From: Octopus vulgaris
Taxonomy: Eukaryota
Direction: 5' to 3'
Assembly (NCBI GenBank): GCA_951406725.2
Contig: OX597817.1
Coordinates: 91,326,001-91,390,000 of the forward strand
Length of the DNA stretch: 64,000 nucleotides
Shown here: positions 43,324-63,900 of the stretch, piece after piece
Position numbering within the stretch: the stretch's first letter is position 1
How the letters are laid out: the number at the start of each line of letters is the position of its first letter
Notes under the pieces: model-generated
What the model was told of the DNA's origin: nothing
Database searches by the model: none
The model's input: the letters and a program-made list of their open reading frames with translations, nothing else
Position numbers and translations under genes: made by a program

Positions 43324-45815
43324 TTAGACAGCTTGGGGGTGGGGGCAATGTACACAGCAACGACTACGAGTTGTAGTCACGTATGTAGATGGAGGAGGGG
43401 TCAGTGTGTGCGATGGTATTGGTGTTGGTTGCTGTGGAGTAGCATTTGTTTTATGTTGTACTGTGACTGGTGTATGAGGTGGTATTGTTTCATTGTCTGT
43501 GTATGCCCACTTAAGCTTGTCTAGTGAGACAGTTTCCTTTTTACCATTGATGTCTATGGTATATAGTTTATCTGTGTATGACAGGACATGATAGAGTCCT
43601 GTGTTTGGAGGTATGAGAAGGATTTTCACAGCCTCGTTTCTAGAAACACATAGTTCCAAGAATCAATGTCTTTTGGAACTGATGATTTAGTGGTTTAGTG
43701 TCGTGTGTTGACATGGGTGGCAGTTCTTGCATGCATCTGTGAAGTCTGTGTATGTACATAGTGGTGTGTTGTGTGGACAGATTTACTGGGGCCAACATCT
43801 GGCCTGGCAACAAAAGAGGTGTGCCATAGACAAGTTCTGCTTGGGAATAACTGAGATCCTCCTTTATCAAGGCTTGACAGCCAAAAAGGTCTATAGAAAG
43901 ATATTCGCTCCATCACTGCTGATTTGGGTAAGCACGCAAAACAGCTATCATTTGATGGTGGAATCATTCCACTGTACCATTGGATTGTGGATGGTAACTG
44001 GTAGTTCGAATCTAACATGCACCTATGGTCTTCGTGAGCTCGTGGAAGAGTTGCAATTTAAACTGTTTTCCACAGTCAGTAGGGGTGATGGTAGGAACTC
44101 TGTACTGTGATATCCATCCTGTGAGAAAAGCTTTGGCAACAGATTCTGCAGTGATATCTACTAAAGGAATAGCTTCTGGCCAACATACGAAATGAGCAGT
44201 GCAGGTGAGCAGGTAGATACATCCTTGGCTGTCAAGGTTGATGTGTATGTGGTTGAAACATACATCTGGTGTGTTGAATGTGCCAAGGGGTGCACAAATG
44301 TGCCTATGCAACTTTGACTTTTGACATAAAAGGCAGGAGCGTGACCAAGCAGTGATGTCTAGTCTCATATCTGACCAAAAGTATCAAGCTGAAATGAGTT
44401 TCACTGTGGCAGTGATGCCAGGGTGTGACAAGTTATGTGGTGTGTTGAAGACTGTTTGTCTGTGGGTTTCCAGAACAAAAGGATGAGGAGAATTCGTGAA
44501 AGTATCACACAAAATCTGTGCATCAGCTGTGGGTATTGGGAATTACTTGAAGTTGCATGTGACACAGGTGGGTAAGGATATATCAATTGTCTCTAAGCGA
44601 GGTTGATCTCTAGCCAGGAAATGCAGGTTGATGTCTGTGGGGGACAACAGCAAATTCAGTGGTAGGCGTGATAAGGTGTCTGCAGCAGTGTTATCTACAC
44701 CAGAGATATGGCAGTTGTCAGCAGTAAATTGGGAAATGAAATCCAAGTACCTGGTTTCCTGCAGAGAGTACTTCTTAGGCTTCGAGCACAGGGAAAAGGT
44801 GAATGGATGGTGGTCTGTAAAAATTCTGAATTGGCATCCCTCAAGTGTGTGCCAGACATGTTTGACTACTAAATACATAGCTAACAGCTCCTGTCCAAAA
44901 GTGCTGTAGTGAGTTTCAGCTGGTTTAAGCTGCCAAGAGAAAAAGAACAAGAGTCTGGAGTTGTTGCTGGTGAAAATTGTTGTAAGATTATGCCTCTGGT
45001 AGTGTTGAATGCATCCACCACAAGGAATAGCTGAGTGTCTGTGACAGGGTGGGTCTGAGCGAGTTGTTGCTTTGCTGTATTGAAGTCACATTGGGTGGAG
45101 TCCAATGCTATCGGCTCATTCCTCTTTTTCTTATTCCGAAGGAGTGTGTCTAGTGGATACAATATTTCAGCTGAATGAGGAACAAAGTGCTGATAGAAGA
45201 AATGTCAGAGATAACATAACAAGGTAGGTGGAGGTAACTCCTGCAATGCCCTCACCTTGTCAAGCAGTAGTGATATGCCTTCAGGGCTGATGATGTGACC
45301 TAGGAAGGTCAAAGTAGATGCACCAAAAATACATTTAGTAGGGCTGATCTGCACTTGGCAAGTCTTGAACCGCTTGAACAGCTGACATACATGATGGAGA
45401 TGTTCCTCGGGTGAGGCACTAGCTATCAAGATATCGTTGATGTACACATAGATGAAGTCTAAGTCTCGGATGACTTCATCTATGAACCTTTGAAATGTGC
45501 TGGCTGATTTCCATAAACCAAATGGCATAGTTAGGATTTCAAAGACACCAAAAGGTGTAGTTACAGCAGTCTTTGGAATATCCTCTGGATTCACAGGAAT
45601 CTGATGATGTGCCTTAACCAAGTTCAATTTGGTGATTACTCTGCTATTGTGGAGAGATGATACAAAATCCTGAATGTTGGGTAATGGGTAACTATCTGGC
45701 ACCATGAAGAAGTTTAATCTCCTGTAGCATTCCCTGGAACACTTTGGAACCATGTGCAAGGGCACTACCTAGGGCCTATTAGAGGGTCGAATGATGCCCA
45801 ACTGGAGCATGTGGT
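43324..45815 (-). mobile_element. Gypsy/Ty3 LTR retrotransposon pol remnant (RT, RNase H, integrase)
   Basis: PLHMVPK, YPLPNI, KTAVTTPFG, MPFGL, YINDILI; YSTFGQELLA, FTDHHP, ADTLSR; WPEAIP, TDCGKQF, AELVYG. The RT-RH-IN order is diagnostic of Gypsy. Many frameshifts; LTRs not identified. Confidence 0.92.
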
Positions 45816-45849: not shown

Positions 45850-46160
45850 TTTATGCGCCCTTTTCAAGCCTAGCCAGGCTCATGGGCCCAGTTTCCTGGT
45901 TTCTATGGTGTACCTCTATGGCGTTCCCCCCAGATGGACGGGACGCCAGTCCATCACAGCGTTACTCAAGAAACAGGAAGAAAGAGTGAGAGAAAGTTGG
46001 GGTGAAAGAGTACAACAGGGGTAACCACTACCCCCTTCCAGGGCCTCATGGAGCTTTAGGTGTTTTCGCTCAATAAACACACACAATGCCCGGTCTGGGA
46101 ATCGAAACCACGATCCTCTGACCTCGAGTCTGCTGCCTAACCACTGGGCCATTGCACCTC

Positions 46161-46162: not shown

Positions 46163-46251
<89 letters not shown>

Positions 46252-46254
<3 letters not shown>

Positions 46255-47068
46255 ATCTGTATTTTTGTTATTTTTTATTTGCCCTGTCCGTGTGAGCTAA
46301 CAGTCGTACTGGCTTTCATGGGAAACATGTATTTTCGTGGTTGAAACCTTTTGGATTAACTGGTGCTAGAGTGAGCAATATAGTGACCACTCTCTTATAT
46401 TTATTTTGTGAAAATATTATAATATGTTATAAAATATTATAATAATCCAGGTTTCTCGTAGCACTAGGCCACTTGGTGTGGAATAAATATACTATTAAAT
46501 TAGTATCTAATTCTCTCACCCTTATTAATTAATTATAATTATGCTGCATTTATTTCTAAATGCTGTATTTGTTTTCCGTGAGAGTTTGGCGCGCTGTTGG
46601 TTGGGGCATTTGAATTATAACGTCGGATGTAATCAATTGAACCACACGCGTATTTATCGTTATGGTAAAATCTGGCGTGTGATTGAGTGGATTTCATCCA
46701 GATAGTCTTGGCTGACGAGCTACAAATGGATTATTGTAAGTAATATTACATTTAATTCATTAATAGCGAAACAATTGTCCAAAATAATCTGTATTTTTGT
46801 TATTTTTTATTTGCCCTGTCCGTGTGAGCTAACAGTCGTACTGGCTTTCATGGGAAACATGTATTTTCGTGGTTGAAACCTTTTGGATTAACTGGTGCTA
46901 GAGTGATCAATATAGTGACCACTCTCTTATATTTATTTTGTGAAAATATTATAATATGTTATAAAATATTATAATAATCCAGGTTTCTCGTAGCACTAGG
47001 CCACTTGGTGTGGAATAAATATACTATTAAATTAGTATCTAATTCTCTCACCCTTATTAATTAATTAT
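46252..47068 (+). mobile_element. Retrozyme/Penelope-like element: 1.5 tandem copies of a 532-bp unit with an HHR at the junction
   Basis: 46252-46536 is almost identical to 46784-47068. Inserted in (TA)n; non-coding. Confidence 0.8.
46701..46790 (+). ncRNA. Type I hammerhead ribozyme, intact core, long stem II
   Basis: CTGACGA(46712)-GCTA..AATGGATTA.TGTAA gtaata TTACA..TAATTCATT..TAGC-GAA-A-C aatt G-T-C(46779). GUC triplet, palindromic ACAATTGT stem III, imperfect stem I. Confidence 0.82.
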
Positions 47069-47212
47069 ATATATATATATATACTTTATTAAAAAGCAGC
47101 AAAAGTACCACAAAAACTATTTTTGTGATGTATTTTCTGCTTTTTAATAACTCTACCTCTGGTATTTGAGTGTTATTTTTTCCTCCTTGTTTCACATTTA
47201 TGTGCTTACACT

Positions 47213-47771: not shown

Positions 47772-48270
47772 TCCCATCAATCAAATTTACTCCTCAGGCA
47801 TTGTTCAACCTGGGGCTATAGTAGAAGACATTTGCCTAAGGTACTGCCAGAGCCTCGTGGAGCTTTAGGTGTTTTCGCTCAATAAACACACACAATGCCC
47901 GGTCTGGGAATCGAAACCACAATCCTCTGACCTCGAGTCTGCTGCCTAACCACTGCACAGAGGTACTGAACCTGAAACCATGTAATTGCAAAGCAAGTTT
48001 CTTAACCACAGAACTAAGGCTGCACAAGACTTTCAAACCTGATATCAATAGATACAACTTGCTTCTACCTCTATTTCTTTATCTTCTTTATCTTCCATCT
48101 TCTCTTCCTTAAAATCCACTCTTCCCATAAAAGTAATTATTGTTATTAATATGTGGCATCATTTGTTATAGCCATTATGTTGATTATCATTATTTCTACT
48201 TTTTGTATGTGTGAATACTTTTATAAAAGCTACAGTTTTATAATACATTTATTCTTACCCTTGAGAAACA

Positions 48271-49572: not shown

Positions 49573-49910
49573 CAATTGCAGAGTGGAAGGTGTTTATGAG
49601 CCCTTTAAGAACACACAAAAAACGTTAGATTCACTTCAACATTTAAATTGAATTTGCCAAAATATTTTCATTGCTTTGAGACCACGACCTGTTCACTGAC
49701 AAAATTACATCACAGAGTTTTGTCAATGAACAGGTCGTGGTCTCAAAGCAATGAAAATATTTTGGCAAATTCAATTTAAATGTTGAAGTGAATCTAACGT
49801 TTTTTCTGTGTTTCTTAAAGGGCTCATAAACACCTTCCACGCTGCAATTGTTTTCATTCCAGCACACGATCTCAGATCAGGCCACTTGCTATGCAAGCAC
49901 ATCTCCATAA
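49573..49910. mobile_element. Fold-back G3-C8 HHR element, second inverted pair
   Basis: 49573-49704 is inverted at 49718-49850. HHR-like motifs at 49654-49702(-) and 49720-49768(+). Confidence 0.75.
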
Positions 49911-60941: not shown

Positions 60942-63900
60942 TTAATTCAACCCAAGAATAACAATCGGGAGGTACGTACTTTAAACTTACAACACAAAAT
61001 GTACGAAAAACTACACATGCAAAACAATGTGACAACAGAAATGAACGGACCGGTACCCTACGAAAATGACGACCGTCAAAATAATGGTCCGGACGTTGTT
61101 CCGCATGTCCCGCAAATAAAACCCAAAAGACATAAATGGACATGTGAGGAATACATTTCTATCCTACACGCATACTTCACAGCAGTGCTCTACCCAAAAA
61201 ATGAAAACACAATAACACATACATATAAAATATGGAAGGAAAATAACATAAATATAGACTTGGATACAGCAATGAACCCTAATAAATTAGCTAACGTACG
61301 AAGATACATTCTCAACGCAAAAAAATATCAGAAATAGAAATAGAACATCTAAAAGAAAAAATACAACAGGAAAATGTAGATAGAAGCCACACAACAATGC
61401 CAAATAATATAAACACTGAAACAGTAAAACGCGAAGACAAACGTAACATTCCCAACAAACACAATGGAAACAAAAAACAACAAACCCAGACCGTAAGGAT
61501 GCATAATAATACACGACAAACAGCAAGCCAAAACACGGCAAACAAACATATAAATAAGAAAGAAAGCGACACAAATCTAAAACCTGGAAACAACAAAGGG
61601 GAGCCTAATGATTATGATAATATAAAAACTAAAATAATCAAAGAACTGAAAACCACAGAGCTCAAAATGGACCACCGACCATACCTCCCAAAAATCAAAA
61701 TAGACGAAACAACAACACCAATTATAAACAGCATAAACCTAGCCGTCACGGAACTAATAGCCACTGAAACAAAAAGCGATATCACTGAGCTAAATGACTT
61801 AGTATACACAGCAGCCACTGCAGCCACAAAAGAAGCTGGATACTCACTCAAACCCATCCAAACAGGAGTACCACCACCCAAACAAACCCCGTGGATAAAT
61901 AACATCCAAAACAAAATACAAAAAAATGAGAAAAGATCTGTCGATTCTTAATGAAATCGGTAGACAAGCAACACTACTGTGCAACAAAAAGAAAACAAAA
62001 ATACTCCGCAAATATAACATCACAGAAAAAGATTTACCTGAGATAAAAGAAAAGCTGAAGCAAGATATCCTTGCCAAAGCACAAAGGATCCGCTGGTACG
62101 AGAAACGCCAGCGCCTCTTTGAACAAAACAAAAAGTTCAACTCCAAACCCAAAAAGTTCTACCAAGAACTTGGCAAAAATAAAATAGAAATCACTGCAGC
62201 ACCAACGGCAGAAGAAGTGGAAGAATTCTAGAGAGAAATATGGTCGGCGAACGAATAACCAAAAAAATGGAGTATTAAAACAACAAACTCAGCATCTGAG
62301 CAACTTTGGACCCCCATAACAACTGAAGAGGTCACCCAGGCACTGCAAAGACTAAGCAACTGGAAGGCACCTGGGCATGACAAGATCCCCAACTTCTGGT
62401 TGAAATATCTAACAGGAATGCACAAAAAGCTGGCTGAAAACTTTAACAACATACTGGCAGAGCCAGAGACAATGCCTGAATGGCTCACGAAGTGGAAAAC
62501 CATCTTAATTCCCAAACCAAATGAGACAGCAAAACCAGAAAACTACAGACCAATAACCTGTCTCCCTACAATGTACAAGGCATTTACTGTAGTGATATCA
62601 CAAAGGTTGAACAAGCACCTGGACGAAAACAACCTGTTTCCAGAAGAGCAGAAAGGATGCCGCAAAGGCTCATATGGCTGTAAAGATCAACTAATGATTA
62701 ATAAAGCCATAACTGAAGACAGCCACAGAAAGAAGAAAGACCTCAGTATGGCCTGGATCGACTACAAAAAGGCGTTTGATAGCATCCCCCACACATGGAT
62801 CCTCAAAACACTAGCCATTAACAAAGTAGCACCAACAATTATAAAATTCATAGGGCACTCTATGAATAAATGGCAAACAGTGCTACAGCTCCAAACAAAA
62901 GAGGGACTCATGAAAACCAAAGCCATCCCCATTAGAAGAGGAATATTCCAGGGAGACACGCTCTCTCCACTCCTTTTCTGCTTGGCACTGTCACCTCTAT
63001 CTGATATGTTAAATAGAACTGGATGCGGATATAAATGTTACGGCAAAACGATCAGCCACCTTTTATATATGGATGACATAAAACTATACGCTGCAAATGA
63101 CAAACAGCTGGAAACACTATTAAAGACAGTTCATGGATTTACCAAAGAAATAGATATGAAATTTGGATTAGAAAAATGCGCCAAAGTAACCATGAAAAGA
63201 GGAAAACTAGTTAAGTGTAGCAACATCACACTAGATAAAACCAATGAAATAAAAGAATTAGACCAAAGCCAAACTTACAAATACTTAGGAATCCATGAAC
63301 TAGATAAGACACAACACACACAAATGAAAGATAAAATAAAAAAAGAATATTATAGACGAGTTAGATCAATACTAAAAACAGGGCTCAATGCTAAAAACAA
63401 GATAACAGGTATTAACACTTTAGCTGTCCCAGTTATAAGTTACAGCTACAATATCCTTAACTGGACACTAAATGAACTGACCACAATAAATAGGAAAACA
63501 AGAAAAATAATGACAGGATCTAGGATGCATCACCCAAAATCTGACATAGAAAGACTATATATACAACGTATAGAAGGTGGTAGAGGCCTTATACAGCTGG
63601 AAAACTACTATAAAATAACCACCACAGGACTGCAAAAATATCTACTTCAGAAGGAAGGAAAATTGATACAAATAGCAGCAAAACACGAGCAAAACAAAAA
63701 AACTGTTCTCAGTATTTAAGGAAGCTGACAAATACAAACAAGAAATAATACCACCTAATAAATATGAAGAAAAAGAAGAAGAAGAAGAAGATGAAGAAAC
63801 AACAAAAGCTATAAAACAAATGAAATCCAAACTAAAAAATAGAACAGCAACGAACCATGATAAAATGATGGCAAGAAAAGCCCCTTCATGGTAAATACTG

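What the first reader, a model, noticed from the sequence alone, without database searches (positions are those of the whole stretch)
46252..47068. Young retrozyme-like 1.5-mer whose unit boundary sits at the hammerhead cleavage site
Seen: a 532-bp period with near-identical repeats, and an intact HHR cleaving after 46779. The repeated unit starts at 46784, so the element's 5' end (46252) maps about 5 nt downstream of the equivalent cleavage site. Established: metazoan retrozymes are tandem HHR repeats that yield circular RNAs. Inference: this copy was reverse-transcribed from a self-cleaved, possibly circular, RNA of about 530 nt.
Basis: partly seen in the sequence, partly recalled or inferred. 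Interest (0 to 1): 0.75.

Follow-up and report, generated by a model that had tools for sequence, protein, structure and literature searches.

The report
Two-armed hammerhead retrozyme, Penelope-type insertions
This is one damaged copy of a young, protein-less jumping repeat that carries a self-cutting RNA motif; its copies do not start at the cut site as first thought, but end at two fixed points inside TA repeats, one per arm, which suggests that a Penelope-type enzyme copies a single, likely circular, RNA from both ends of a DNA break.

Summary
The repeat is real; the inference is not. The window holds 1.53 units of a 533-nt non-coding family with a type I hammerhead (2,072 intact junctions in this genome). 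This copy lacks one C at the cleavage site (2 such junctions), hence the 532-bp period. Its 5' end near the cut site is chance: of 124 arms none starts at unit positions 1-4, 5 start within 15 nt (3.5 expected), and 105 run through the site. The fixed boundaries are two 3' ends, about 160 (A) and 291 (B) nt after the cut, abutting (TA)n. All 44 classifiable head-to-head insertions have one A and one B end, the inverted-repeat-plus-tail signature of Penelope-like elements. Two variants are fixed in all units of both arms of one locus and occur at one and no other place, as expected if one unit-length RNA ring was copied repeatedly. Intact Neptune-like PLEs insert the same way here; the partner is not identified. 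Cleavage and circles are untested. A new member of the non-LTR retrozymes; the scan noted this architecture before on other families.

The parts
46252..47069 (+). Single-armed retrozyme insertion, 1.53 units (unit position 6 round to 291), 5'-truncated, 3' end at site B
   Evidence: L070 4753-5570
46699..46791 (+). Type I hammerhead motif: helix I 46699-46711 with 46780-46791, core 46712-46718, long helix II 46719-46767, GAAA 46768-46771, 2-bp helix III with palindromic AAUU loop, predicted cut after 46779
   Evidence: cleavage not tested
46779..46780 (+). One C missing relative to the family (CC for CCC); weakens helix I in this copy; gives the 532 period
47049..47069 (+). Site B (unit position 291): fixed 3' end used by this copy, ending in TTATA that merges with the TA target; an internal copy ends at 46537
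46919..46939 (+). Site A (unit position about 160): the family's other fixed 3' end, read through in this copy; an internal copy ends at 46407. A to B is a 'tail' of about 131 nt
46233..46251 (.). (TA)n target, left part, behind a (CA)n run; ATA microhomology at the 5' junction
47070..47083 (.). (TA)n target, right part
46375..46375 (+). Only substitution between the two copies (unit position 129): the 5' copy has the allele of other subfamilies, the 3' copy that of the youngest

Best explanation
This is a 5'-truncated, single-armed copy of a young non-coding hammerhead repeat (a non-LTR retrozyme) whose copies end at two fixed sites inside (TA)n tracts, and which is likely written into DNA by a borrowed Penelope-like (probably Neptune-type) enzyme copying a likely circular 533-nt RNA. 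Proposed steps: (1, inferred) transcripts of tandem arrays are cut by paired hammerheads and the monomer is ligated; the weak palindromic helix III would keep a lone ring uncut. (2, inferred from footprints) the PLE endonuclease cuts both strands of a TA tract with a stagger of roughly 8-12 nt. (3, footprints shown, enzyme inferred) each DNA end primes reverse transcription at its own internal start on the RNA, one at A and one at B, as a dimeric enzyme holding one RNA would. (4, inferred) each polymerase runs round the ring for 0.1 to 13 turns and stops anywhere; the two cDNAs are joined head-to-head, or, as in the window, only one is kept and joined to the target by microhomology.
For: Two 3' ends: 62 A, 61 B, 1 other of 124 arms in 80 loci; 123 of 127 classified 3' ends have (TA)3 within 30 nt (84 loci). 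44 of 44 classifiable head-to-head loci pair A with B; 2 more could not be classified. Target duplications are visible in the 2 two-armed loci with non-TA letters at both joints, about 10 bp in L066 and 7-8 bp in L090. 105 of 124 arms cross the cut site. One template: 314A>T has 4 genome matches, all the units of both arms of L066; 63C>T has 8, 7 of them all the units of both arms of L064. 106 locus-site pairs carry a non-reference allele in all of 3 or more units against 10 partial cases; arms agree at 65 of 72 informative sites (62 loci). Arrays of 11.6 identical units exist in the youngest subfamily. Fold-back copying cannot give 8 of 44 two-armed loci. In the same genome 16 of 16 fetched loci of one PLE family have a 781-codon open frame with RT and C-terminal GIY-YIG, insert in (TA)n and have two 3' ends 40 nt apart, one per arm in L121 and L123; a second family does so in L139. 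Two internal RT starts that bound the tail, cutting and extension of both strands and a predicted dimer are reported for an anole PLE (PMC11167929). Sister hammerheads keep helices I-III with changed sequence; the unit folds at z -8.6 and has no ATG frame over 54 codons.
Against: No circle, cleavage or strand-specific RNA was seen; all runs are contigs and none is on record as RNA. No PLE shares clear sequence with the unit (best 66% over 113 AT-rich nt), so the partner is unassigned. Only 3 variants were counted genome-wide and one of them, 516A>G, is not private (22 matches, 9 loci); a source array missing from this assembly could explain a 'private' allele. Ten partial variants, some in blocks or with period 2-3 (L053, L065, L069, L067), point to multimeric templates or later DNA-level exchange in some loci. 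A core change (U4 to C) is fixed in 2 of 51 multi-unit loci, and the anole PLE used uncut RNA in vitro (PMC11167929), so cleavage may not be needed for every insertion. The strand bias of single-unit changes (G>A 17, C>T 5) is only borderline (p 0.053).
Confidence: 0.62

Rival explanations
1. Same PLE-driven twin-start insertion, but the template is a long uncut multimeric transcript of a source array; the hammerhead is slow or protein-gated and circles play little part.
For: Mosaics in L067 and L069 fit overlapping copies of one linear multimer; one unit of L052 comes from an older subfamily. PMC11167929 found unprocessed RNA to be the main substrate in vitro. U4C fixed in 2 loci.
Against: A new variant arises in one unit, so its presence in all units of both arms and nowhere else needs a unit-length bottleneck; fixed cases outnumber partial ones 106 to 10.
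Confidence: 0.22
2. Short two-armed seeds are inserted by a PLE and then grow into arrays at DNA level by unequal crossing over, as proposed for vertebrate retrozymes.
For: Block and period-3 variants (L035, L045, L053). Model stated in bioRxiv 10.64898/2026.07.22.740005.
Against: The longest uniform arrays belong to the youngest subfamilies (11.6 units without a difference); single-unit changes are mostly unshared (55 singletons); both arms are often multi-unit.
Confidence: 0.1
3. One reading: the copy was made from a self-cleaved RNA whose 5' end set the element's 5' end.
For: This copy starts 5 nt after the cut; 3 of the first 40 loci have an arm starting at positions 5-7.
Against: 0 of 124 arms start at 1-4; 5 within 15 nt against 3.5 expected, the window included; this copy itself crosses the cut site once.
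Confidence: 0.03
4. The repeat is only the terminal repeat (pLTR) of an unseen coding PLE, or the inverted arm comes from fold-back self-priming.
For: Architecture equals that of PLE ends (PMC8557442, PMC3846280); only 84 of probably about a thousand loci were examined.
Against: Arms continue as unit after unit, up to 12.8 turns; 3 non-TA 5' flanks inspected show no PLE frame (L032, L078, L162); fold-back fails for 8 of 44 loci.
Confidence: 0.03

Closest known systems
Metazoan non-LTR retrozymes (Cervera and de la Pena 2020, PMC7229834; Li, Clavereau and Pollet 2026, bioRxiv 10.64898/2026.07.22.740005)
   Same: Non-coding, low-GC (33%), strongly folded tandem unit with one type I hammerhead; dispersed dimers to multimers; co-exists with PLEs.
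   Different: Unit of 533 nt, longer than the 170-400 nt circles of PMC7229834 but within the 51-972 bp of the preprint. Those papers propose circle-templated, PLE-driven insertion; in the parts I read they give no insertion footprints. Here the two fixed ends, the one-of-each rule and allele sharing are visible. Cleavage and circles are shown there, not here.
Endonuclease-positive Penelope-like elements (Neptune, Penelope/Poseidon, Naiad; PMC8557442, PMC3846280, PMC11167929)
   Same: 5'-truncated partial tandems, head-to-head inverted copy, tail at one end only, AT-rich or (TA)n targets, short target duplications, two internal RT starts.
   Different: No ORF; tail about 131 nt instead of 30-40; arms of up to 13 units; no clear homology to the local PLE ends that I sampled.
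L1 twin priming (PMC2837659, seen in a search listing only; mechanism recalled)
   Same: Both target strands prime, giving a head-to-head product inside one duplication.
   Different: In L1 the second start is set by where the first cDNA stopped; here it is a fixed site unrelated to the other arm's 5' end.

Membership tests
Non-LTR retrozyme | Tandem units each with a type I hammerhead motif | tested here: met
   Family: arrays of 533-nt units, 2,072 intact junctions. The window copy has only one motif, and it is damaged.
Non-LTR retrozyme | No coding capacity, low GC, stable fold | tested here: met
   Longest ATG frame 54 codons, GC 33%; z -8.6.
Non-LTR retrozyme | Dispersed, recently mobile, no LTR | tested here: met
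   Identical units on many contigs; 2,798 matches to an 18-mer at site A.
Non-LTR retrozyme | Self-cleavage of the transcript | not testable with these tools
   Only motif conservation: 11 of 12 core positions show no fixed change, U4C is fixed in 2 loci, N7 varies.
Non-LTR retrozyme | Accumulates as unit-length circular RNA | tested here: inconclusive
   A 563-nt contig that loops back 533 nt in a guessed RNA run fits a circle or a tandem array equally.
PLE-mobilised sequence | Fixed 3' ends, variable 5' truncation, inverted arm, tail at one end | tested here: met
PLE-mobilised sequence | AT-rich target with short duplication | tested here: met
   123 of 127 ends at TA; duplications readable in 2 loci.
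PLE-mobilised sequence | Homology to the pLTR of an autonomous partner | tested here: inconclusive
   None clear in 61 GIY-YIG-centred stretches; only 150 of 6,136 candidates were scored.
Autonomous PLE | RT plus GIY-YIG open frame | tested here: not met
   No frame in the unit.

The most novel reading that the evidence does not exclude
Each insertion is a record of one dimeric Penelope-type enzyme holding one 533-nt RNA ring and copying it from both cut DNA strands at once, one active site starting at A and the other at B, each rolling for up to 13 turns; variants present in that one ring, possibly including A-to-I edits, are thereby fixed in the genome. This would explain the PLE 'tail' and inverted repeat, and give genomic proof of the circle-templated step proposed for retrozymes.
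Probability: 0.45. Interest if true: 0.72.

Novelty: new member of a known kind. Interest (0 to 1): 0.45.

Why it matters
How Penelope-like elements make their inverted repeats and one-sided tails, and whether retrozymes are copied from RNA circles by PLE enzymes, are stated as open in PMC8557442, PMC11167929 and PMC7229834. This young family gives exact start sites, a strict pairing rule and a local intact enzyme candidate, which makes both questions testable with a 533-nt RNA and one protein. The window copy itself is a damaged, uninformative member.

Tried and rejected
Rfam found no hammerhead at either threshold. The missing C as a ligation scar: rejected, 2 places only and 1 of 2-3 junctions in the other, error-rich locus. 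Fold-back self-priming as the general source of the second arm: fails in 8 of 44 loci. A-to-I edits written back: inherited changes are A>G 17 against T>C 10 (p 0.03, depends on the root), but the root-free count is 8 against 6 (p 0.29), so inconclusive; 516A>G is fixed on several backgrounds, and single contigs or loose ends in two guessed RNA runs carry runs of A>G across the uncut junction, which hints at edited transcripts but has no matched DNA. Expression: no RNA holder is on record; contig depth cannot rank expression. Partner search: no clear nucleotide match to sampled PLE families; an inverted stretch beside a PLE in L136 is an older hammerhead repeat, not that PLE's end. A LINE inserted just ahead of the ribozyme, as earlier notes report for other families: one candidate junction (L162) is unique and non-coding; not searched further. 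Loci dropped before counts: L049, L060, L172, L174 (rearranged, gapped or error-rich); L052 also for spectra. Literature: 4 searches found no paper on this family or on a one-of-each rule for retrozyme arms; supplements were not read, and those of the two retrozyme papers may bear on this.

Full report
Observation. The window has a direct repeat at 46252-46537 / 46784-47069 with period 532 and one mismatch, between two TA tracts. Between the copies lies a type I hammerhead motif: core at 46712, long helix II, GAAA at 46768, a 2-bp helix III with a palindromic loop, GUC at 46777-46779. The region folds better than 200 of 200 shuffles; Rfam does not list it. The genome is 2.8 Gb in 227 contigs; from its size and repeat content I take it to be an octopus, which is my inference.

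The family. A search of the own genome gave 259 matches from 40 scored of 869 candidates, many in arrays with period 533. An 18-mer of the unit has 2,798 exact matches and the intact cleavage junction 2,072. The window copy lacks one C at the junction; that form has 2 matches and is not shown by the contigs listed there in four runs. So 'intact' is wrong for this copy: helix I loses a pair beside the core. I number the unit from the first base after the predicted cut. It has 33% GC, no ATG frame over 54 codons and folds at z -8.6. Eleven of 12 core positions show no fixed change in 51-59 multi-unit loci; U4C is fixed in 2; N7 has three states. Six other hammerheads met in fetched loci keep the helices with different sequence.

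Sample. I examined 84 loci: the 40 best by similarity, 35 taken in order along contig C1 and 9 chosen for a variant.

In 80 loci (4 rearranged, gapped or error-rich ones dropped) there are 124 arms of 45 nt or more. None starts at positions 1-4, 5 start at 1-15 (3.5 expected, the window included), the 5' ends do not cluster (Rayleigh p 0.12), and 105 arms cross the cut site. A cleaved linear monomer would give arms that stop at position 1. The window's start at position 6 is an ordinary truncation with ATA microhomology to the target.

What is fixed is the 3' end. 62 arms end at about 160 (site A), 61 at about 291 (site B), 1 elsewhere; 123 of 127 classified ends have TA repeats within 30 nt. 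Of 84 loci, 46 are head-to-head with the 3' ends outward; 44 can be classified and all 44 have one A and one B. Nine single-armed loci have a few bases that read as a stub of the opposite kind of arm, though three of these overlap a palindrome of the unit itself. Where non-TA letters allow it, a target duplication is seen: about 10 bp in L066, 7-8 bp in L090. The window is a single B arm.

One template. 314A>T occurs four times in the genome, in all units of both arms of L066. 63C>T occurs eight times, seven in all units of both arms of L064 and once in a short single-armed copy. The third variant tested, 516A>G, is not private: 22 matches in 9 loci, on several backgrounds. In 62 loci, 106 locus-site pairs carry a non-reference allele in all of three or more units, against 10 partial cases, and the arms agree at 65 of 72 informative sites. 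A variant arises in one unit, so fixation across both arms needs a unit-length bottleneck; rolling reverse transcription of a ring is the simplest. Against a pure ring model, some partial variants form blocks or repeat every 2-3 units, L067 and L069 fit a linear multimer, and one unit of L052 is from an older subfamily. Fold-back copying of the first cDNA cannot give 8 of 44 loci. Single-unit changes lean to G>A on the sense strand (17 against 5 C>T, p 0.053), weakly in favour of each unit being reverse-transcribed separately.

The enzyme. A GIY-YIG search scored 150 of 6,136 candidates. [quoted passage not shown] It inserts in (TA)n, with two 3' ends 40 nt apart, one per arm in L121 and L123. 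A second family has ends about 30 nt apart, one per arm in L139. Neither shares clear sequence with the unit, so the class of enzyme is supported and the partner is not named.

RNA. No holder is on record as RNA; 14 guessed RNA runs hold the unit. One gives a 563-nt contig looping back 533 nt, which a circle or an array would both give; two give single contigs or loose ends with runs of A>G across the uncut junction. This hints at edited transcripts, but expression, cleavage and circles are not shown. The test for edits written back into DNA was inconclusive.

Known systems. Non-LTR retrozymes are tandem type I hammerhead repeats expressed as circles, with PLEs proposed as mobilisers (PMC7229834: passages and Discussion read; bioRxiv 10.64898/2026.07.22.740005: parts 1-3 of 5, the main text). 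Inverted 5'-truncated copies, a tail at one end and (TA)n bias are PLE marks (PMC8557442 and PMC3846280: passages). An anole PLE protein cuts and extends both strands, starts at two internal RNA sites that bound the tail, is predicted to be a dimer and did not need cleavage in vitro (PMC11167929: parts 1-2 of 4). A short palindromic helix III favours dimeric cleavage (PMC4209133: passages). Four searches found no paper on this family or on the one-of-each rule; supplements were not read. After my analysis, the scan's notes showed the same architecture on other hammerhead families in this and other genomes and no note on this sequence; these notes are not independent support.

Verdict. A real but damaged copy of a new retrozyme family. 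New member of a known kind; interest 0.45.

Noticed in passing
G000 loci L116-L131 (e.g. L119:1844-7060): Young Neptune-like PLE family with a 781-codon RT/GIY-YIG frame, an upstream 479-codon frame in three loci, (TA)n targets and two 3' ends 40 nt apart; a ready candidate for in vitro work.
   Followed up: partly
L099, L124, L162:2618, L043:2460, L136:4034 (-), L098, L112: Several other hammerhead repeat families with long helix II and palindromic helix III; those in L043 and L099 are head-to-head, and in L043 the two ends lie about 120 nt apart (L099's longer arm runs off the locus). L136's repeat shares short motifs with this unit and may be an older relative.
   Followed up: partly
L168, L170 (unit position 467): Hammerhead core variant CCGA instead of CUGA fixed in all units, both arms in L170.
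   Followed up: no
L053: Two variants recur together in units 3 and 6 of an 8-unit arm: a trimeric template or a three-unit duplication.
   Followed up: partly
window about 43500-45800, minus strand: Broken Gypsy-type retrotransposon fragments (RT, RNase H, integrase) just upstream; unrelated to the element.
   Followed up: no
window 61500-63720, plus strand: LINE with a 486-codon RT-bearing frame and broken upstream frames; clade not determined.
   Followed up: no
window 46035-46146 and 47844-47955; 49573-49850: Two 96% identical copies of an abundant SINE-like repeat flank the element; a MITE-like inverted repeat with 104-nt arms lies at 49601-49821.
   Followed up: no
runs X1 and X11 on L032:2236-2768: Contigs and loose ends with runs of A>G across the hammerhead junction, like hyper-edited RNA; head-to-head arms would make long double-stranded RNA.
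   Followed up: partly
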